NCBI GenBank assembly: GCA_963703315.1 | Contig: OY969811.1 | Span: 3,808,001-3,872,000 of the forward strand | DNA length: 64,000 nt | Source of the DNA: an uncultured cyanobacterium | GTDB taxonomy: Bacteria; Cyanobacteriota; Cyanobacteriia; Pseudanabaenales; Pseudanabaenaceae | Reading direction: 5' to 3' | In this document: piece after piece, positions 45,681 to 64,000 of the stretch | How the letters are laid out: the number at the start of each line of letters is the position of its first letter | Position numbering within the stretch: position 1 is the stretch's first letter | Made by a program: the position numbers and the translations under genes | Notes under the pieces: generated by a model | What the model saw: only the letters and a program-made list of their open reading frames with translations | Told to the model about the DNA's origin: nothing | Database searches by the model: none

Positions 45681-45774
45681 TAAAGATGTAGGGGGAATTC
45701 ATGAATTCCCCCTACATCTTTAAACTGAGGCTAAAAAAGAGTGGCGGCGCTTCGCGCCGCCACTCTTTTTTAGC
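45681..45774. repeat. Two adjacent palindromes (GTAGGGG type and GGCGGCGC-TTC type)
   Basis: TAAAGATGTAGGGGGAATTCATGAATTCCCCCTACATCTTTA and GCTAAAAAAGAGTGGCGGCGC-TTC-GCGCCGCCACTCTTTTTTAGC. Confidence 0.9.
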
Positions 45775-54238: not shown

Positions 54239-55240
54239 TTAAGGAATTTCAATCTCTCGCAAAAACTTAGCACTATCTTCAGGAATTGCCGTATTAATAT
54301 ACATACCACTACCTAGCTCAAAACCTGCTGCTTTTGAGACTCTAGGCACGATCGCTAGATACCAATGGAAGTAATCAGATTGTCGCTCATCAGTTGGCAT
54401 AGAACGGATCGTATAGTTATAAGCAGGATTGTTTAAACCATAGAAAATCTTGGCGAGAACAGTTTTGAGATTGTAGGCAAGATCGGCGATCTCTAAGTCA
54501 TTGACATCGCCATAACAGGAACTATGACGACGGGGAAATACCCATATATGGAAGGGAGAAAGGGCGGCATAGGGCATAAAAGCTACAAAATGTTCTGTTT
54601 CTAGAACAATTCGTTCTTTGGCATTCACCTCATCTCTAAGAGTATGGCAAAATAAACATTCGCCAGTATCATCAAAATAATTGGTTGCTTCAATCAAACG
54701 ATAGCGAATTTGGGAAGGAACAACGGGAGTAGCTGTGATTTGTGAATGGGGATGTTCTAGGGATGTGCCTGCACTCTCACCATGATTTTTAAAGATAATA
54801 ATGCTTTCAATCCGTTTGTCTTGACTAATAATGTTATAACGCTGGCGATAGGCGGTGAGAATGTTGATTACGTCCTCCACATCCATCAAGGCGATCGTGG
54901 CATTATGATCGGGATGTTCAATCAGAACTTCGTGATATCCTACGCCTGTAATGGATCGGTGAATCCCTTCACTATGGCGAATGCGATCGCCAATAGGTTC
55001 AAGAGCAGGATATTTATTCGGAATGATTCTCACCCGCCAACCGCGATCATCTTCGATTCGCATATATTCAGGTTCGGCAGGATTTTCATTACCTTTACAA
55101 AATGGACAATTATGCTTATAAATCGGTAGTTTGGGTGGAGTTTCTTCTTGAGGTCGAATAAATTCGTGAGGACGTTTGGCTCTTTCAGTGGCAAAGATCA
55201 CCCAATCCTTAGTAATCATGTTTTGGCGTAAATGTGACAT
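54239..55240 (-). CDS. galT: Galactose-1-phosphate uridylyltransferase
   Basis: RAKRP, CPFC.GNE, GTSLEHPHSQ. Confidence 0.92.
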   Translation of the reverse strand: MSHLRQNMITKDWVIFATERAKRPHEFIRPQEETPPKLPIYKHNCPFCKGNENPAEPEYMRIEDDRGWRVRIIPNKYPALEPIGDRIRHSEGIHRSITGVGYHEVLIEHPDHNATIALMDVEDVINILTAYRQRYNIISQDKRIESIIIFKNHGESAGTSLEHPHSQITATPVVPSQIRYRLIEATNYFDDTGECLFCHTLRDEVNAKERIVLETEHFVAFMPYAALSPFHIWVFPRRHSSCYGDVNDLEIADLAYNLKTVLAKIFYGLNNPAYNYTIRSMPTDERQSDYFHWYLAIVPRVSKAAGFELGSGMYINTAIPEDSAKFLREIEIP

Positions 55241-55254
55241 AGTAATTCACCAAA

Positions 55255-56793
55255 TTATGCAGAAAAAACGATAAATCGATTACGCCCTTGCTGCTTGGCA
55301 CTATAAAGAGCCGTATCTGCTTGCCTAATTAGTATTGCGGGGTCTTGCATCGAATTGGGAATTAAACTAGTAACTCCGAGACTAATCGTAACTATATCGC
55401 TGATATCCGAATTTTGGTGAGCAATGTCTAAGTTGGCGATCGCAAAGCGGATCTTTTGGGCAACAGCGATCGCGCCTTCTAGATTGGTATTAGGCAAAAT
55501 CACGACAAATTCTTCGCCTCCATAGCGTGCAACTAGATCGGCTGGGCGAGATAAAGCTCGTTTAACAGATTGGGCAAGCCTAGTTAAGCAGTCATCTCCC
55601 ATTTGATGTCCATAGCAATCGTTATAGCGTTTGAAATAATCAATATCAAACAATATCAAAGAGATTGGTTGTGACTCTCGGCTCAGTCTTTCCCATTCCA
55701 TTTTCAGGCGATCGTCAAAACATCGACGGTTACCAACTTGAGTCAATCCATCAATATTCACCAACTTTTCTAATTCTAAATTTGCTTGTTTGAGAAGATT
55801 TTCACTGCGTTGTAATTCTGTAGTTCTCTCAATTACTTGCAATTCGAGGTTTTCCATTGCTTGTTTGAGAGATAACTGGGCTGCATTTTTCTCATCAATT
55901 ACTGCCGAAAGAATTAACGATGTTAAAGCTAGCACCGCCATAAAAGATTGCAATAGTAACAAAGATGCGTTAGGTTCATTGGGAATATAGAGTCCATGAT
56001 TTCTAGCTGTCGCTAAAATCGCAATTAGGGAAACGATACTCACTAATAAGCTCGCAAAAAAACTACCATATTGAAACACTGTCCAAATCAGAATTGGCAG
56101 AAATAGATAAGCTAAGGGATAGTTACTGACAAAAGCAATCCAGCTAACACCTAAAAATATACTCAGTCCTAATCCTATTTCCCAATACTTATCTTGGATG
56201 GTTTTGTGATTGTATGTGTTAGCGCAGTTTTGCCATAACAGTAATGTCGGGGTAAAAATTAAATGTGGCAGCGCACTACCTAGCCACCAAGTCATCCAAC
56301 TAATTCCATAACTCGTCCATGGGATGACTCTAGTTATACAGAGGCTCGTAATTCCAAACGATGCGGATACAGTCGGTGCAAAAACTGCTGCCAGAATATA
56401 CAAAACGACTGTATTCACATGACTAAAAATATCTTTATGGCGTGCGAATTTCTTAATTATATATGTGGCAATCAATGGCTGGAGAACATTTCCACAAGCA
56501 CAGGCTATCAAGATTATTAAGAGATTGAAAACCGATAATGATGGAAGTGATTTTAATAAACCGAGAGTAAGTGCATAGGTGGAGCCACAAATAATGCCTA
56601 AAATGACCCGATCGCCTAATAAATAGACTAGAGCTAGAGTCATTCCAGAAGGAAACCAGACTGAAGCAACTGTAGCAGGTAATGTGGCAAATTCATGGCT
56701 AAGCCTTACCCCATAAGCATAGGCAATGGCTACTAACAGATTCAGAATAAGAAATTGTACAATTCCCCTCTGCAATAGCCAATCGCCTTTCAT
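55255..56793 (-). CDS. MASE1-GGDEF diguanylate cyclase
   Basis: MASE1 TM region; RPAD I-site and GGEEF active site. Confidence 0.92.
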   Translation of the reverse strand: MKGDWLLQRGIVQFLILNLLVAIAYAYGVRLSHEFATLPATVASVWFPSGMTLALVYLLGDRVILGIICGSTYALTLGLLKSLPSLSVFNLLIILIACACGNVLQPLIATYIIKKFARHKDIFSHVNTVVLYILAAVFAPTVSASFGITSLCITRVIPWTSYGISWMTWWLGSALPHLIFTPTLLLWQNCANTYNHKTIQDKYWEIGLGLSIFLGVSWIAFVSNYPLAYLFLPILIWTVFQYGSFFASLLVSIVSLIAILATARNHGLYIPNEPNASLLLLQSFMAVLALTSLILSAVIDEKNAAQLSLKQAMENLELQVIERTTELQRSENLLKQANLELEKLVNIDGLTQVGNRRCFDDRLKMEWERLSRESQPISLILFDIDYFKRYNDCYGHQMGDDCLTRLAQSVKRALSRPADLVARYGGEEFVVILPNTNLEGAIAVAQKIRFAIANLDIAHQNSDISDIVTISLGVTSLIPNSMQDPAILIRQADTALYSAKQQGRNRFIVFSA

Positions 56794-56835
56794 GTAATAC
56801 CCAATGAAATTATCAGACTTTTCTTATTTTACTGT

Positions 56836-57690
56836 CTATACAACTTCTTTGAGCATCCAAAATCCTGAAAAATGTTCTACATCTGGGCTAGTCTGTACAG
56901 CTAAAAAATGGAAGCCTTTAGCTTTTATTTTGGCTTGCTCAAATTCATCTCCTTGAGCGATCGCCTGTTTGTCTTTGGGTGCTTGGAGATTAGCTAGTAC
57001 CCATCGCGCATCGGCACTGGCTTCTAACTGCATTTGGCAGCGATCGCCTAGTAAATTACGCTCAAATTTGATAAACACAGGATCAACTCCCGACATCCAA
57101 GCTGCTAACGCCGTTGCTCTTGCCGAAATAATAATGATCCCCGCGATGATCGTTTCAGGATCAAGATCACCAATATCTAGTAACTCACTAAAGTCCATTG
57201 ACCATTCATTCGCATCTGCAAAGTCTCTTACTTTTAAAGATACCGAAATCCAGCGCTCACCCATGAGGGCATCAGGAACAGGTTTAGGATCTTGGGCAGC
57301 TAATACTTTTAAGGGCAGAGGATTGGGATCAACTGCTTGAAAGCCTTCCCGATTGGGATAAATGCTTGCCATGCGTTCTGCGAGCCATGCTGATAGCGTA
57401 AATACACGCCGAGATGCTTGCCCTGTGATACCCGCCAAAGTACAACCCCGAATAATAATATTGGTCATACTAGGACGGAAAAAACGAATCTTGATGGGAG
57501 TTTGCCCTGTGGTTGCGACGCAATCAGCGAGTTGTTTGGCTAACCATTCGGAGTTGACTTCTGTGGATGGACATTCACGTACCCATTCAAACTGGCGATC
57601 TCGATCGCAGATCAGCAATTCCCAGATTTTTTTATTATTGGCATCCAGTAAGGGACGGGAATAAAAATCTAACTCCCAAATATTCGACAT
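56836..57690 (-). CDS. Tab2/Atab2 family RNA-binding protein
   Basis: WELDFYSRP....KKIWELLIC, VNSEWL, GFHFLAVQ..P....FSGFW. Confidence 0.92.
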   Translation of the reverse strand: MSNIWELDFYSRPLLDANNKKIWELLICDRDRQFEWVRECPSTEVNSEWLAKQLADCVATTGQTPIKIRFFRPSMTNIIIRGCTLAGITGQASRRVFTLSAWLAERMASIYPNREGFQAVDPNPLPLKVLAAQDPKPVPDALMGERWISVSLKVRDFADANEWSMDFSELLDIGDLDPETIIAGIIIISARATALAAWMSGVDPVFIKFERNLLGDRCQMQLEASADARWVLANLQAPKDKQAIAQGDEFEQAKIKAKGFHFLAVQTSPDVEHFSGFWMLKEVV

Positions 57691-57940
57691 AAACGGCTTT
57701 TAGTTAACTTATTTAAATTGGCTGTTTTCATGTTATCGCGATCGCTACCTCTACAGTTTTTTAGGTGTGGGATTTTGGCTAGGCGATCGCTATCCGCTAA
57801 AATATATCTGTGATCTCACCATCAGTCCCTTGTCGGGCAATTCCACCACAGTGAAGCTGAATGTCTTAATTTAAGGTAACGGCATCAAACATTTGAAACT
57901 TACTCATGTTTTTGCCTCCTGCTACGTTGTGGTACTGCTG

Positions 57941-58147
57941 TTACAAATCTTTTTCCGTTAACTCTGCATCTTTCATAATGCTTCTCAATGTTCCAGTTGG
58001 TAGATCGCGATTTCCATGAACTGGGATAGAGAGAATTACATCACTGCTTTGTTTAATGTATATGTGATGACTACCTGTAACTCTTTTCAATTCCCAGCCT
58101 TTACGCTCAACTATTTTGCAAAGAGTTTTACCCGAAACTGATTTCAT
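57941..58147 (-). CDS. hicA: HicA family toxin
   Basis: GW...RV.GSHH..., IPVHG..DL..GTL.SI. Confidence 0.92.
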   Translation of the reverse strand: MKSVSGKTLCKIVERKGWELKRVTGSHHIYIKQSSDVILSIPVHGNRDLPTGTLRSIMKDAELTEKDL

Positions 58148-58344
58148 AGGGATAGTTCAACCAGTTGTTTATCTGCTTCTATGTCTTGGATTTCATTGGC
58201 AACTTCTAGCCATGCTAAGGCGGCTTCTTGTAACATTTCTAGTAGATGTTCGTAGCTATCTCCCCAAGTATGGCAGCCTTTTAATGCTGGGATAGAACCA
58301 CACCAAGCGCCATCTTCTTGCCAAATAATTGCTTTAATTTGCAT
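58144..58344 (-). CDS. hicB: HicB family antitoxin (short form)
   Basis: PALKGCHTWGDS.E.L...L.EA; ATGA overlap with hicA. Confidence 0.9.
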   Translation of the reverse strand: MQIKAIIWQEDGAWCGSIPALKGCHTWGDSYEHLLEMLQEAALAWLEVANEIQDIEADKQLVELSL

Positions 58345-58452
58345 AAATATATTTTTACCAATTTATATTGATTTGATTGTTTGATTCATCTTATCTTAAA
58401 CCTATTCCCACTTAACTATTTGAGGAATGATGCAAGATCGTCGAGTGGATTT

Positions 58453-58701
58453 TTACTGTCGATTATTGACATTTAAGATAGTCAGACCAATAATTTCATC
58501 ATTTTGATAGCGGATTAAAATATCGTCATCTGTCAATTCGCTATCATCAGCAGCAAGTGCGGGTTGATGAAAATTGATGTATAACACATCGGCTTCGACA
58601 TCATAAAAAGTCCAAGTATTTTTCTTGGGTAGGTTTTTGATTGCATTAGCTAAGTTGAGATAGCTAGGAATTTTGAGAGGGTTTAAGGGGAGCGTGACCA
58701 T
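58453..58701 (-). CDS. DUF2283 domain protein (putative antitoxin)
   Basis: YD.EADVLYI.F...D.ILIRY....IIGLTIL. Confidence 0.85.
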   Translation of the reverse strand: MVTLPLNPLKIPSYLNLANAIKNLPKKNTWTFYDVEADVLYINFHQPALAADDSELTDDDILIRYQNDEIIGLTILNVNNRQ

Positions 58702-58865
58702 ACTTCTTTACGTTTGTTGAGAGAATTGATACGTCTAGTTAGTAGGCAGTGATGAAAAACCCATCTTCTTCTGCTTCTTTGTAAATTGTAACCAAATACT
58801 TATTATCACCTAGCAGCTTGACTGCTAAAAGATTGCCATTATTACCTTCCAAAATTACAGATAGT
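58683..58865 (-). pseudogene. Truncated, frameshifted partner (putative toxin) of the DUF2283 protein
   Basis: ...KYLVTIYKE.EEDGFFITAY, then a 1-nt loss near 58741; the shifted frame reads TRRINSLNKRKEVWSRSP* across the DUF2283 start; no plausible N-terminus. Confidence 0.6.
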
Positions 58866-58975
58866 TGGAGATCGCGTAGTCCAGTGATTTTGCCAATAAC
58901 TAGAAAAAATAGCCTAGTATTCAAAGTTTTTTTGTTATAGTGAGACAATTCAAGGCTTTAGCTAAACTTAAATAT

Positions 58976-59194
58976 ATGCTTACAACCTTTACTGCAAATT
59001 ATACAAAGATTGACTCAGGTTACATGGGGCAACTCATTGAATGGCAAGAGGTAATAACTGAGGGTGAAACTCTGGAACTTTGTCGTGAATCTTTGCAAGA
59101 TGCTTTACAGGAAATGATTGCTGCATATAAGCAACAAAACAAGGAGATTCCTTCTAATAAATCTTTAATCGAGCAGATTCCCGTGGAAGTTTAG
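58976..59194 (+). CDS. hicB: HicB family antitoxin
   Basis: GY......V.TEGETLE.CRE.L.DAL...EIP; ATG 58976. Confidence 0.85.
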   Translation: MLTTFTANYTKIDSGYMGQLIEWQEVITEGETLELCRESLQDALQEMIAAYKQQNKEIPSNKSLIEQIPVEV

Positions 59195-59196
59195 TT

Positions 59197-59385
59197 ATGT
59201 CAGTTAAACGTAGTGATCTGGTGAAATATTTTGAAGAAAATGGATTTTACCTGCTTAGAGAAGGTGGGAATCATTCAATTTACACTAACAATACCAAAAC
59301 AATTCCGATTAAAAGACATCGGACAATTGATCGGATTACAGCAAATGCGATATGTAAGCAAGCAGGGATAGCACCGAAGTTTTAG
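59197..59385 (+). CDS. hicA: HicA family toxin
   Basis: NGF.LLREG.NH.IY......PI.RH..I......ICKQAG. Confidence 0.9.
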   Translation: MSVKRSDLVKYFEENGFYLLREGGNHSIYTNNTKTIPIKRHRTIDRITANAICKQAGIAPKF

Positions 59386-59390
59386 TGAAT

Positions 59391-59575
59391 GCGTAGGGGC
59401 ATAGCATTCCCACAGAGATTTAGGCGTTTACAGATTGCCTTGATTTGGGAATGCTATGCCCTCAACCTGTAATCGTAGGGACAATTTATCGGTGAAAGTG
59501 GAGAGGGTTTAGCATTTGCGGATCGAGATTGTGGTTATGAGTTTAGAAATTGTGGCGCAAATGTTAAACCTCTTT
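59391..59575. repeat. Cluster of GTAGGGG-type REP-like inverted repeats
   Basis: GGGCATAGCATTCCC...GGGAATGCTATGCCC; GTAGGGACA; AGAGGGTTTAGCATTTGCG...CGCAAATGTTAAACCTCT. Confidence 0.7.
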
Positions 59576-59577
59576 CG

Positions 59578-60925
59578 CTAAAGTTTTGAATAGTAGTCTC
59601 GAATTTTGTATGACATCAATTTTCGACGCGCTTCCAAAAATTCTGCGTAGTCTTCGATGTTTTTAACCTCCATTCCATCGGGCAGACAATGATCTGCAAG
59701 GTTCTTATTTAACTCACTATAATTCACGATGCCCCCATAAAAGGCTTGCTGAGTCTTACATTGCTCTTGTAGAGTTTTAAAATATTGATCTGGCGAACGG
59801 TCTTTAATTGCAATGTTAATTTCACTCTGCATCATGACGTAATTGGCAATCTGGTTATATTGACCTTTTTCTAAGTTGTTCCGCTTGAGATAGTTTTTTG
59901 GAAATATATGGTGAATGTCTCCTCTATTCATTATCAAATCTCTCACAGTAATATCTTTAGAAAGAAATCCCTTGTTGTTGCCATGAATTTGAGAGGCAAG
60001 AAACACTTTAAAATATGGGCTGCTGGCGACAGAAGTATCCATTTGTTGAGGAAGCCCAGCATCCCAGAATGCTTGAGATAATTCAGCAGCTTCTATCTCA
60101 GATTGATAGCGACTCATTCCCAATTCATCAATTCGTCTAATATCAGTATCAAATGTTGATTCAGGTGAGCCAGAATATCTACCTGTGAGGACAGACATGA
60201 CTAGCCACTTACGCACATGGGATTCAATCTTAGCAGGAGGTGTACTTTTTGATTTGAGAACTAAGTAAATTACATAGGCAAAGTTGATGGCATTGCGAGA
60301 ACGAATCATTGAAGGTTCAACAAATCCAGCAGATTTCAAAATCATAATGAACTTCTTGAAATTAGTCTCATTCATGAATTTGAGAATACCTTCGTCTAAT
60401 TTTCTGAAAGACTCCTCAGCGATCTCATCTTCATAGGTTCGAGTTTCAAAATTTCTGCCTGAAAGCAAAGCAACAAGATCTTGCAATCGCCCACGTTTAA
60501 ACTCTGAAGTAAAAGCGACCCTAAGCATATCTGAGTAAGACGGATCGTATAAATCATCGTTCTCATCCTTTAGCCAAGACATCTTTTGAAAATATGCGGT
60601 TGCGCCAAATTCTTGATCAAGGTCAGCCAACTGTTGATAAAACTGAGGAGCTTTAGCCAAATGGCAAAAATAATCAATACATTTGCGAAGCTTATTGCCA
60701 CCATAAGTTTCGTTAGCGGCAATTTTTGACATAACGAAATCTGCTTGATTGAGAACAGCTCCCTGCGAATTGATGCGAATAAAAATTTCTGTAACTACCT
60801 CAATATCTAGATCTGAGTTAAGTTCAATAAGCCCAATATGGTTATTAACTACTCCTCGTAACAGTTCCAGACTATTGTAGATAGCGTCTTGGTCTGTATT
60901 TTCATTGCGATCGCAGTATTCCCCT
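59578..60925 (-). pseudogene. C-terminal part of a GmrSD-like (DUF262+DUF1524/HNH) nuclease, interrupted by IS110
   Basis: The frame stays open upstream of 60732 up to the IS junction: GEYCDRN...[11 protein letters not shown] (DUF262 end); DIHHIFPK...AN...IN HNH-like motif. Confidence 0.9.
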
Positions 60926-60932
60926 TGTATCT

Positions 60933-61140
60933 AGGAGGAAAAGTAAAGGATAAAATCTTTACTACAATCCGAAAAAGCAAAAGCAGAGATAAACTCGATC
61001 TGCCCCTAGGGACACCAAGCCCGTTTTGTAGATAGAGTCGTCTCTGCTTAAACAGTGGAAACAAGTAAAGACTGGACAGTATCAGAGGTCGCCCAACGGG
61101 TAAACCTGCATTCACAAGGATAGTTCAATACCACTGATTG
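60933..61140 (+). ncRNA. Bridge RNA of the IS110 element (ends approximate)
   Basis: 5' hairpin AGTAAAG/CTTTACT; target loop closed by AAGCAGAGA/TCTCTGCTT with guides TCTGCCCCT and TTTGTAG; donor loop closed by CAGTGG/CCACTG with guides GACAGTATC and ACAAG. Confidence 0.85.
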
Positions 61141-61175
61141 CTTGATGGACAAATCTAGCAAGAGGACTGCCCCCA

Positions 61176-62162
61176 ATGAACAATAACAATGAAGTATATG
61201 ATGTTTTAGGAATAGATATCAGCAAAGCCAAATTTGATGTTGCTCTAATCCAAGGCAACGCCAAAATCAAGAGCAAAGTATTTGCCAACAATCCTGAAGG
61301 ATTTGCTGAATTACAAGAATGGCTAAACCTTCAAAATGTGACAAACTTGCATAGTTGTATGGAAGCTACCAGCACTTACGGCAATGGGTTAGCTAGATTC
61401 TTAGTAGAGGCAGGATACAAAGTAAGTATTGTTAATCCATCCCGTCCCAAAGCCTTTGGCAAGAGTGAGTTAAGTCGTACAAAGACTGACCGTGCTGATG
61501 CTAAAGTCATTGCTAGATTTTGTGCAGCCTTAAAACCTGCTCTTTGGACACCACCAGCATTAGAAATTGAGCAACTACAAGCATTGGTGCATCGTTTAGA
61601 TAGCTTAACTGCTATGCAGCAGCAAGAGCAGAATCGTCTTGCTACGGCTGATCCAATTTTGGTTGAGGCAATTAATGCTCACATTGATTTTCTCAAAGAG
61701 CAAATTGAGATGACCAAAAAATTGATCCGTCAGCACTTTGATCAACACCCTCATTTGAAATCTCAACGGGATTTGTTGACTTCTATTCCTGGTATTGCTG
61801 AACTGACCGCAACTATATTACTGGCGGAAATTCGGGATATTTCTGCCTTTGATACTGCTGATCAACTGGCAGCTTTTGCGGGTTTAACTCCCCGTGAGTT
61901 CTCATCTGGTTCTTCGATTCATGGTAAGCCACGTTTATCTAAAATTGGTAATTCGCGTTTGCGTAAAGCTTTGTTTATGCCTGCGATTGTTGCCCGTCGT
62001 TATAATTTGCCGATTGCTGCTTTCTGCGCTCGCCTTACGGCTAAGGGTAAGTCCAAAATGTCTGTCATTGGGGCTGTCATGCACAAGCTGTTACGACAGG
62101 TCTTTGGCGTTCTCAAGTCTCAGCGTTCTTTCGACCCAAATTTTGTTCAAATTCCCTCTTGA
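61176..62162 (+). CDS. IS110 family DEDD recombinase/transposase
   Basis: GIDISK, MEATS, KTDRADA (RuvC-like DEDD); SIPGI, AFAGLTP...SSGSS (Tnp domain with catalytic Ser), GNSRLRKAL. Confidence 0.97.
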
Positions 62163-62187
62163 CTTTTTGGTACTCAAGACAGTATCT
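62159..62187 (+). promoter_or_regulatory. -35 box of the circle-junction promoter in the IS right end
   Basis: TTGACT-N18-TATCT; the -10 becomes TATCTT only when the right end joins the left end. Confidence 0.65.
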
Positions 62188-62636
62188 ACAAATTTAAGTA
62201 CTTTAAAATCAGGTGCAAAAATCTCTGAGATATCTGAAACCCAAGATTTATCTTTAACAATAGCTGGGTTGGAAACCTCAAATCGTTGTTCTTGTGGATT
62301 AAAGGCAATAGTAATTTTAATCCTCTGATAGTCTTTATTGATGACGTACATTCCCAGAATTGCTGCCATCAATGCTGTAACTCTCTGCTGTCCGTCAATT
62401 AAGATTCGTTTGCCTTGAGACGTTGTACCGTCTTTCAGTTTTACCGTTGGATTGCGCCACGCAATTAGATACCCAACTGGATAGCCTTGATATAACGAGT
62501 CGATTAAATCTCTAACTTTTGAACCATTCCAAACAAAAGGACGCTGTATTTCTGGGATTGCAATTTCCTCAGATCTAACCCAAGTTAGTAGAGTTTGAAT
62601 AGGATGCTGATTAACGGAATATTTTTGAATTGACAT
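62187..62636 (-). pseudogene. N-terminal part (150 aa) of the GmrSD-like DUF262 protein, interrupted by IS110
   Basis: [27 protein letters not shown]; the last 31 aa of the track ORF are IS-derived. Confidence 0.92.
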
Positions 62637-62677
62637 GGCTTATTATCTAGATTTAGTTAGCTTGAAATGACTGCAAA

Positions 62678-62872
62678 TTACCTAATTACACAACGGTGCT
62701 TCAATGGCTTCGACTCATCCTGAGCTAAGAAAGTTTTACCAAATCCCCCCTGTTCGATCGCCTTCAAAGCGCGATAACGCTCTTGAATTTGTAACTTAGC
62801 GCCGCATTGAGTGCAAAACTTGGTTGTTATTGAGTTTGAATGATCGCAAGCAAGACAAAGACAGTTACTCAT
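62678..62872 (-). pseudogene. N-terminal fragment of a 4-Cys-prefix Ser/Thr kinase
   Basis: C..C...N....FC..CG, then RY...K.I.QGGFGKTFLA.D......CVI, stopping at the catalytic-Lys position. Confidence 0.8.
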
Positions 62873-63034
62873 GCCGAATGAAATTTTTTGGAAAGCTATC
62901 TTTGATAATTATGACATTTAGATAGGATGATCATCCATCCTCATCAATTACATCAAAGCGATCGCCAATAAACTCAAACAAAAAAGAGGATCAAACATTG
63001 TTTGATCCTCTTTTTGCCGAAACTAGCTTTGTGA

Positions 63035-63409
63035 CTATTGAACGATCACTTTGCCTTGCATACCAGCTCCACGGTGAGGAGAGCAATAGTAAGCAAATTC
63101 ACCAGCTTCATTGAAGGTGGACTCTAGCTCAGCCTTAGGCTTTTGAGCCAACTTCTTGTGAGAAAGTTCTTCATGACCATCAAATACGACGTTGTGAGGG
63201 AAAGCTTTGTTATTCACCCATCTAACAGTGTCGCCAACTTTGATTGTGACTACTTTAGGCTCGAATACTAGCTGACCACCATCGGAACCCATCTTTACGG
63301 TGACAGTATCAGCCGATGCAGGAGATGCGGTGATGAACAAGCTACCAATAACAAACAAAAGGCTAGCGATCGCTAAGCCTAGCTTTTTCGCAAAAGAAGA
63401 AATATTCAT
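63035..63409 (-). CDS. petE: Plastocyanin
   Basis: Signal peptide, PHNVVF, YYCSPHRGAGM copper ligands. Confidence 0.98.
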   Translation of the reverse strand: MNISSFAKKLGLAIASLLFVIGSLFITASPASADTVTVKMGSDGGQLVFEPKVVTIKVGDTVRWVNNKAFPHNVVFDGHEELSHKKLAQKPKAELESTFNEAGEFAYYCSPHRGAGMQGKVIVQ

Positions 63410-63586
63410 AATTAACTACTGACTAAAATTCAACTGGACTTGCACTAATTCGACTCGACTCGAACTAAAGCAACTAAAACACGTAGAGAAAAGCTGTGGG
63501 AATTAGCTTTTGACAGATCTTTAGATATTTAAAGATCTTTTAGATAAACGATGACGCATGACTAGTGCGTGCATTATTTAATCCGT

Positions 63587-64000
63587 TTAATAGTATATCT
63601 TTCCGCCGCCCCAGCCGATACCTTTGACTTTAGGTTCGTAGAGGATATAACCTGCAATTAACTTGAGGTCATTGTCGGTGAGACCACGCATAGTGGGGAA
63701 AATATCGGTACTTTTGAGGCTGGGGTGAACGTCATAGATTTCAGTTACACCGTCATAGGTAGTAGGCTTCTTCATGAAATCCACTAAACCAAGCACATTG
63801 TTCCGCACTGGATATGCACCAGCCAAAGATTCAGGAGAAAGGTTAACGTTCGGATTGGTGAAGGTCGCGCCGCCGAGGTGGCAGGTGGCACAAGCATTAG
63901 AGAATAATTTCTTGCCCTTAGCGATGTCTTTTTGAGTTAAGACAATATTGGTCTTTTCGTTGAGGGGAACGGTACGCAACTCGATGGGGATATCGGCGGC
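63587..64000 (-). CDS. psbV: Cytochrome c550 (5' end beyond the window)
   Basis: CATCH heme motif, PTTYDG, HPS..S.DIFP.MR, WGGGKIYY. Confidence 0.93.
   Translation of the reverse strand, partial: AADIPIELRTVPLNEKTNIVLTQKDIAKGKKLFSNACATCHLGGATFTNPNVNLSPESLAGAYPVRNNVLGLVDFMKKPTTYDGVTEIYDVHPSLKSTDIFPTMRGLTDNDLKLIAGYILYEPKVKGIGWGGGKIYY

What the first reader, a model, noticed from the sequence alone, without database searches (positions are those of the whole stretch)
60999..61031. The bridge RNA target guide spells a host REP-like repeat end (TGCCCCTAC); the GmrSD insertion looks like a near-match hit
The guides specify TCTGCCC-CT-ACAAA, whose reverse complement contains GTAGGGGCA. That motif begins an intergenic repeat in this window: 59391-59404 reads TATGCCC-CT-ACGC on the minus strand (8/9 to the left guide, weaker on the right). 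A variant lies at 45705-45718 (ATTCCCC-CT-ACATC). IS621 is known to target REP sequences. Inference: this element is programmed for a cyanobacterial GTAGGGG repeat as a safe harbour, and landed in a coding look-alike with 2 left-guide mismatches.
Basis: inference. Interest (0 to 1): 0.7.

Follow-up and report, generated by a model that had tools for sequence, protein, structure and literature searches.

The report
RNA-guided transposon aimed at cyanobacterial repeats
A small jumping gene uses a built-in RNA guide to land in the ends of a harmless repeat that flanks the host's own repeat-copying gene; this copy missed and broke an anti-phage gene, and relatives appear to swap guides to aim at other repeats.

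Summary
Confirmed and sharpened. Window 60924-62187 is an IS621-like IS110 element; 60999-61031 encodes its target guides (TCTGCCC-CT / CT-ACAAA). The genome has 7 near-identical copies; 6 sit in the GTAG ends of a ~177-bp REPIN-like repeat that flanks the genome's only detected RAYT gene. Occupancy follows the guide: TCTGCCC ends 5/10, wobble TCTACCC 1/10, other ends 0/45, second GTAG family 0/30. The window copy scarlessly splits a GmrSD gene (intact 95% ortholog in a relative) at a site with 2 left-guide mismatches and a full 7-nt right-guide match. Across 62 junctions of this clade, 13 left-guide variants covary with six GTAG repeat families. In one genome a copy carries its neighbours' guide loop on a different backbone while sitting in the old guide's target, which points to guide exchange by gene conversion. 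REP targeting by IS110 is known (IS621, ISPpu10, Anabaena IS1594), so this is a new member of a known kind; the RAYT link and guide exchange were not found in my literature searches. The scan had not noted it before.

The parts
60924..62187 (+). IS110-family (IS621-group) insertion sequence, 1264 bp from CT core to CT core; 7 copies in the genome at 99.9-100% identity
60999..61007 (+). Left target guide of the bridge RNA (TCTGCCC + CT)
   Evidence: covariation with targets in relatives
61025..61031 (+). Right target guide, 4-nt core GTAG plus 3-nt extension (reads CT-ACAAA)
   Evidence: 27 of 27 right flanks begin AC (one only 2 nt long)
61076..61083 (+). Left donor guide ACAGTATC, identical to the element's right end plus the first core base
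   Evidence: 62179-62186; nearly invariant in 28 aligned left ends
61110..61118 (+). Right donor guide ATTCACAAG; nine RNA bases that can pair discontinuously with CTTGTAT at the element's left end
   Evidence: sequence; pattern described in PMC11208160 passage
61176..62162 (+). IS110 recombinase, 328 aa, with D14/E63/D105/D108 and S244 matching IS621 D11/E60/D102/D105/S241
   Evidence: Pfam PF01548 + PF02371, NF033542 244.7 bits over cut-off 140, PDB 8wt6 E 7e-73, motif positions
62159..62187 (+). Right end: -35-like TTGACT and, 18 bp on, a -10-like TATCT(T) whose last base comes only from the left end in the excised circle (inferred junction promoter)
   Evidence: inference by analogy with IS621
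60917..60923 (+). Left half of the target site, TATTCCC (mismatches at guide positions 2 and 4)
62188..62192 (+). Right half of the target site, ACAAA (full match to the extended right guide)
62190..62636 (-). 5' part of the interrupted GmrSD-type gene (GmrSD_N domain)
   Evidence: PF03235 E 5e-22; 96% to the intact ortholog in G001
59578..60923 (-). 3' part of the interrupted GmrSD-type gene
   Evidence: 95% to the 599-aa open frame in G001, same frame, no gaps
59393..59573 (.). Empty REPIN-like repeat (family B) with a TATGCCC end, a class not used by this guide; far end degenerate
45688..45715 (.). 28-nt GTAG palindrome (family A), not targeted in this genome but targeted by relatives with TTTGCCC/TATGCCC/ATTGCCC guides

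Best explanation
An active IS621-like bridge-RNA element. Its excised circle joins the ends into the donor site and (inferred) completes a promoter for the bridge RNA; the left guide pairs with the 3' arm of a REP hairpin and the core plus right guide read the CTAC complement of the GTAG foot, so the element lands at the outer ends of the REPIN-like repeat associated with the host RAYT. A G at guide position 4 reads both ends of the RAYT-flanking form (TCTGCCC exactly, TCTACCC by rG:dT wobble), which lets one repeat take an element at each end. The GmrSD copy is an off-target event in which a perfect 7-nt right-guide match offset two left-guide mismatches. In the wider clade only guide positions 1-4 and the right-guide extension vary freely, moving the element among GTAG repeat families that share the CCC-CT-AC foot; changes arise by point mutation and by gene conversion between co-resident copies. 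Shown: element boundaries, copy number, sites, subclass occupancy, RAYT adjacency, scarless insertion, covariation, one mosaic. Inferred: RNA expression, pairing, wobble, role of the hairpin, compensation by the right guide, selection for safe sites.
For: 6 of 7 copies in repeat ends; all 10 TCTGCCCCTAC sites of the element-free genome are repeat ends, 5 occupied; wobble ends 1 of 10; other ends 0 of 45, Fisher p = 5e-4; ends with one non-wobble mismatch 0 of 24. The single Y1_Tnp hit of the genome passes the REP-associated tyrosine transposase cut-off (85.8 vs 80 bits) and is flanked by two of these repeats, one occupied. At this locus and at 4 RAYT-like loci of 3 relatives flanked by the same repeat, 20 of 20 nearby ends are TCTRCCC versus 17 of 62 elsewhere in G000. 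Reciprocal case: G044, majority guide TCAACCC, occupies 4 of 13 TMAACCC ends and 0 of 18 TCTRCCC ends (p = 0.023), while G000 occupies 6 of 19 TCTRCCC and 0 of 7 TMAACCC (p = 0.15). 62 junctions: mean mismatches at positions 1-4 are 1.0 versus 2.2 in 20,000 permutations (none as low); 25 perfect versus 5.1 expected. Contigs from two other studies show the same element in TCTG(CCC) repeat ends (X3, X4). Full right-extension match in 3 of 6 non-repeat sites versus 1 of 19 repeat sites (p = 0.03). L108 differs from L109 at 5 positions, all in the target loop and all equal to the co-resident majority type, and sides with L109 at the other 49 diagnostic sites.
Against: No expression, circle or binding was observed: laid contigs showed no joints. 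18 of 62 junctions have 2 or more left mismatches, 14 of 62 were not assigned to a repeat family by my patterns, and an RNA-run contig shows a near-identical left end in a different repeat family (X5). The best-matching site of the genome (TCTACCC-CT-ACAAA) is empty. 24 repeat ends with a single real mismatch are empty while a two-mismatch coding site is filled, so mismatch counts alone do not predict use. Relatives are not independent and many junctions come from fragmented or metagenomic assemblies. The G000 half of the reciprocal test is not significant alone.
Confidence: 0.88

Rival explanations
1. Sequence plus structure: the REP hairpin itself is a needed second determinant (as reported for ISPpu10), and the guide match alone would not give this pattern.
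For: Occupied repeats fold into two long hairpins with the left target in the 3' arm and the GTAG feet unpaired. Repeat sites are used with poor right-extension matches, non-repeat sites more often with full ones. bioRxiv 10.64898/2026.03.19.712850 (abstract, sections 7 and 11 read).
Against: All 20 wobble-perfect sites in G000 are repeat ends, so structure and sequence cannot be separated here; 11 of 12 non-repeat sites checked in relatives have no local hairpin partner yet are occupied.
Confidence: 0.4
2. The enrichment is survival bias: the element inserts at many CCC-CT-AC look-alikes and only intergenic repeat insertions persist.
For: One coding insertion exists; selection against gene disruption is expected.
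Against: Equally intergenic repeat ends with other left sequences are empty (0 of 45 and 0 of 30), and the used subclass changes with the guide between genomes.
Confidence: 0.05
3. The GmrSD insertion was favoured rather than accidental (loss of a restriction gene, or a relic of an earlier guide or a trans-acting bridge RNA).
For: 9 non-repeat CTAC sites have at most 2 left mismatches and a perfect ACAAA, and the one used lies in a defence gene. Elsewhere copies sit in sites that fit a co-resident's guide better than their own (L108; L034 beside L042).
Against: The copy is 100% identical to three repeat-resident copies, all 7 carry the same guide, and no other IS110 relative was found in the genome by tblastn. 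One event cannot show selection.
Confidence: 0.12
4. Guide differences among near-identical copies arise only by point mutation; the L108 pattern is coincidence or mis-assembly.
For: 10 of 13 guide variants form one single-substitution network. Backbones are mosaic and the tree has weak deep nodes.
Against: L108 needs 3 parallel changes in 5 bases, each equal to the co-resident type, in a 6-contig genome; GCAGCCC recurs in 4 separately supported groups and TAAACCC in 3.
Confidence: 0.25

Closest known systems
IS621 (E. coli; Durrant et al. PMC11208160, Hiraizumi et al. PMC11208158; PDB 8wt6)
   Same: Two-domain recombinase with the same five catalytic residues, CT core, left-end bridge RNA with target and donor loops, target ending CC-CT-AC at a REP end, position-4 wobble tolerance, optional 7-nt right guide (passages and section 9 read).
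   Different: Different guide and host repeat (a ~177-bp two-hairpin cyanobacterial repeat); the clade shows 13 left guides over six repeat families.
IS1594 (Anabaena PCC 7120)
   Same: IS110-family element reported to insert in REP-like sequences of a cyanobacterium (review PMC3184786, passage read, citing Choi 2003).
   Different: Sequence, guide and target of IS1594 were not available here, so identity or distance could not be tested; the report predates bridge RNAs.
ISPpu10 / ISPpu9 / ISPa11 / ISRm19 (Tobes and Pareja PMC1525189; bioRxiv 10.64898/2026.03.19.712850)
   Same: IS110 copies almost all in REP sequences (7/7, 7/7, 6/6, 4/4 in the table passage); left target in a stem-loop; targets often in close convergent pairs.
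   Different: Here the hairpin is about 70 nt with 16-18 bp arms, two repeats carry an element at both ends, and subclass choice is tied to the RAYT-flanking form.
REPIN-RAYT systems and GTAG-tagged REP families (bioRxiv 10.1101/2021.07.10.451892 section 4 and passages; PMC3733652 passages)
   Same: Single-copy RAYT flanked by GTAG-tagged inverted REP pairs that are dispersed in the genome; GTAG families are known in cyanobacteria.
   Different: Longer unit (154-238 bp, 24 complete pairs) and lower copy number; match to a named GTAG family not tested because the consensus figure is not held.

Membership tests
IS110 family, IS621 group | DEDD RuvC domain plus Tnp domain with catalytic serine | tested here: met
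   PF01548, PF02371; NF033542 over cut-off; D14, E63, D105, D108, S244
IS110 family, IS621 group | CT core at both junctions, scarless insertion without target duplication beyond the core | tested here: met
   7 of 7 copies bounded by CT; empty site restores a 598-aa frame collinear with the G001 ortholog
IS110 family, IS621 group | Long left end with target loop complementary to the target and donor loop complementary to the end junction | tested here: met
   6 of 34 predicted pairs show two-sided changes in 28 left ends
IS110 family, IS621 group | Bridge RNA is expressed, binds the recombinase and directs recombination through a circle | not testable with these tools
   only contigs were available; no joints seen
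REP-targeting IS110 elements | Most copies at one position of a REP family | tested here: met
   6 of 7, all at the CT of the CTAC foot
REPIN-RAYT system (the target repeat) | GTAG-tagged palindromes in inverted pairs, dispersed and extragenic | tested here: met
   65 ends, 24 pairs, folds; ORFs across the six empty sites are 20-170 aa against 598 for GmrSD
REPIN-RAYT system (the target repeat) | Single-copy RAYT flanked by the repeat | tested here: met
REPIN-RAYT system (the target repeat) | RAYT of Group 2 or 3, and RAYT cleavage or duplication of the repeat | not tested
   group not assigned; activity needs experiment
IS1594 | Sequence identity to the named element | not testable with these tools
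   no IS1594 sequence in the papers or supplements searched

The most novel reading that the evidence does not exclude
A clade of bridge-RNA elements is a specialised parasite of RAYT-maintained GTAG repeats: it keeps the universal CCC-CT-AC foot fixed and retunes four guide bases to move among the REP families of different RAYTs, and it does so partly by swapping the whole target loop between co-resident copies through gene conversion. This would be a natural record of how bridge RNAs are reprogrammed, with the guide-encoding DNA itself occasionally used as a recombination site (L110).
Probability: 0.55. Interest if true: 0.72.

Novelty: new member of a known kind. Interest (0 to 1): 0.52.

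Why it matters
How bridge RNAs change targets in nature, and why IS110 elements so often choose REPs, are open questions. This clade offers near-identical recombinases (92-99% for most Pseudanabaena-type hits) with 13 natural guides, known targets and off-targets, reciprocal use of one repeat family in two genomes, and a candidate conversion event, so the questions become directly testable. It is also a candidate native insertion tool for cyanobacteria with a few dozen intergenic landing sites, and shows an off-target event removing a defence gene.

Tried and rejected
Rfam found nothing in 55000-64000. Local hopping as the cause of the two doubly occupied repeats: partners are not each other's closest copies; double occupancy has P about 0.025 in a post hoc model, weak. 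The 28-nt palindrome family as target in this genome: 0 of 30. Laying contigs of 4 public runs showed no circle junction, and the RNA run cannot show transcription; runs with small shares were not used. Self-targeting of guide DNA: clean only in L110; L092, L008 and L128 are ambiguous or at contig ends. Rows dropped: 6 of 68 junction rows (no readable guide or false hits) before the count of 62; L037, L038, L075 were missed by that pattern, seen later and are not in the 62; L128 is in the 62 though it may be an assembly artefact; L115 was mis-scored as non-repeat. The tree used 23 of 37 elements; long branches of L012, L017 and L109 come from interruptions. Literature searches with no hit: 'bridge RNA' + 'RAYT', 'IS110' + 'Pseudanabaena'; two searches listed no primary paper on natural guide exchange (listings only). 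No earlier scan finding on this element.

Full report
Observation. The quoted 33 bases are the target loop of an IS110 left end: TCTGCCCCT at 60999-61007 and TTTGTAG at 61025-61031. The downstream ORF 61176-62162 is an IS110 recombinase whose only PDB relatives are ISCro4 (E 3.5e-76) and IS621 (E 7e-73); the five catalytic residues named for IS621 in PMC11208158 (passages read) are present at a constant +3 offset. The element spans 60924-62187 between two CT dinucleotides. Its right end and left end match the two donor guides at 61076-61083 and 61110-61118.

Copies and targets. The single-contig 4.57-Mb genome holds 7 copies at 99.9-100% identity and no other tblastn hit, all with the same guide. 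Removing them gives the sites: five AATGC-TCTGCCC-CT-AC, one AATGC-TCTACCC-CT-AC and the window's TATTCCC-CT-ACAAA. The first six are ends of a repeat of two long hairpins with GTAG outermost, 154-238 bp, mostly 176-179 (24 complete pairs, 65 ends). Occupancy is 5 of 10 perfect ends, 1 of 10 TCTACCC ends, 0 of 45 other ends (p = 5e-4) and 0 of 30 ends of the 28-nt palindrome family. The A at position 4 would be an rG:dT wobble, the tolerance described for IS621 (PMC11208160 section 9). Two repeats carry an element at each end, head to head.

What the repeat is. The genome has one Y1_Tnp hit, scoring above the REP-associated tyrosine transposase cut-off. It lies between two copies of this repeat, and one of them holds an IS copy. 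Among 17 RAYT-like loci examined from five relatives (17 of 21 returned), four are flanked by the same repeat, always with TCTGCCC or TCTACCC ends (16 of 16; with G000, 20 of 20, against 17 of 62 elsewhere in G000; kin are not independent). One is flanked by the GGAGAC-CAAGCCC family, six by GCACGGGGG-type repeats, and six show no such repeat in the scan, two of them with an IS end within 100 bp. So the guide reads both ends of the RAYT-flanking form, and at least some other target families flank other RAYT-like genes. It fits the REPIN-RAYT description (bioRxiv 10.1101/2021.07.10.451892 section 4), though TCTRCCC is not the commonest end here, so 'master sequence' is not claimed.

The GmrSD copy. 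G001 has an intact ortholog, 599-aa frame, 96% and 95% identical to the two halves with no gaps; the empty site restores a 598-aa frame. The ortholog reads TATTCCC-CC-ACGAA; two synonymous differences create the CT core and the ACAAA in this strain. The site has two true left mismatches and the only full 7-nt right match among the 7 copies. In 25 junctions with both flanks, a full extension match occurs in 3 of 6 non-repeat and 1 of 19 repeat sites (p = 0.03), consistent with compensation; 9 non-repeat sites of this quality exist and one is used. Partial-match insertion is reported for IS621 (bioRxiv 10.64898/2026.08.31.748434, first sixth read).

Relatives. The left end was found in 18 of 48 genomes of the genus and 16 of 401 of the class. 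62 distinct left junctions carry 13 left guides; guide and target covary (1.0 versus 2.2 mismatches at positions 1-4; 25 perfect versus 5.1; without G000 20 of 55 versus 3.9), and 48 of 62 fall in six GTAG repeat families. Positions 1-4 and the right-guide extension are among the most variable columns, while CCC-CT and GTAG are nearly fixed. G044 uses a different subset of the same repeat (4 of 13 versus 0 of 18; its copy list may be incomplete, 16 of 30 candidates were scored). The GCAGCCC family has 70 copies in G044 and none in G000. Contigs from other studies repeat the pairing: two with this element in TCTG ends, one run with a TTTGCCC guide variant and a palindrome-family flank; one RNA-run contig is discordant. 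18 of 62 junctions have two or more mismatches, so pairing is loose or guides change after insertion.

Guide change. Ten of 13 guides are linked by single substitutions. L108 in G044 is identical to L109 except at 5 target-loop positions, where it equals the majority type of that genome, and it sits in the repeat that L109's guide matches; the simplest reading is conversion after insertion (two of the five could be private changes of L109). L062 versus L005 shows a similar tract in a metagenome contig. The same guides recur on separate backbones. L110 is an 85-bp remnant whose guide DNA joins the original right flank exactly at the CT, suggesting recombination at the element's own guide copy.

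Comparison and verdict. REP targeting by IS110 elements is established, including a cyanobacterial case, IS1594, and guide-target covariation across orthologues is the founding result of the field. The element is therefore a new member of a known kind. The tie to RAYT-flanking repeat ends and guide exchange between copies were not found, a library that lacks most subscription papers. Nothing here shows expression or activity directly.

Noticed in passing
G000:C1:2714875-2717575 and 3075044-3077747: Two repeats each carry an element at both ends, making 1.26-kb inverted repeats around a ~175-bp spacer; possible inversion substrates.
   Followed up: partly
G000:C1:3985030-3985870: Tandem array of six half-repeats at 131-bp period ending in one complete repeat (BIME-like cluster); no insertion.
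   Followed up: partly
L110 (G044:C1:1266199-1266282): Left-end remnant ending exactly at the CT of its own left guide and joined to the original right flank; L092, L008 and L128 show similar but less clean breaks.
   Followed up: partly
L034 and L042: Two elements from one record set: the 92%-identical one (guide GAAACCC) sits in an ACCGCGA site that only the 69%-identical one's guide matches; possible guiding in trans through the shared donor.
   Followed up: partly
window 61008-61023: The inner hairpin of the target loop contains ACCAAGCCC, the same as the end of the GGAGAC-CAAGCCC repeat family targeted in relatives; chance or shared origin not tested.
   Followed up: no
L040, L094: Divergent guide ATTATGC with perfect non-repeat targets: a branch that seems to have left GTAGGGG repeats.
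   Followed up: no
window 57941-59385: Cluster of small toxin-antitoxin-like genes beside the GmrSD gene; 59197-59385 is HicA-like and 58979-59194 UPF0150-like.
   Followed up: no
L020 1-1361 (minus strand): Another transposase-like ORF directly beside the RAYT-adjacent IS110 copy; family not tested.
   Followed up: no
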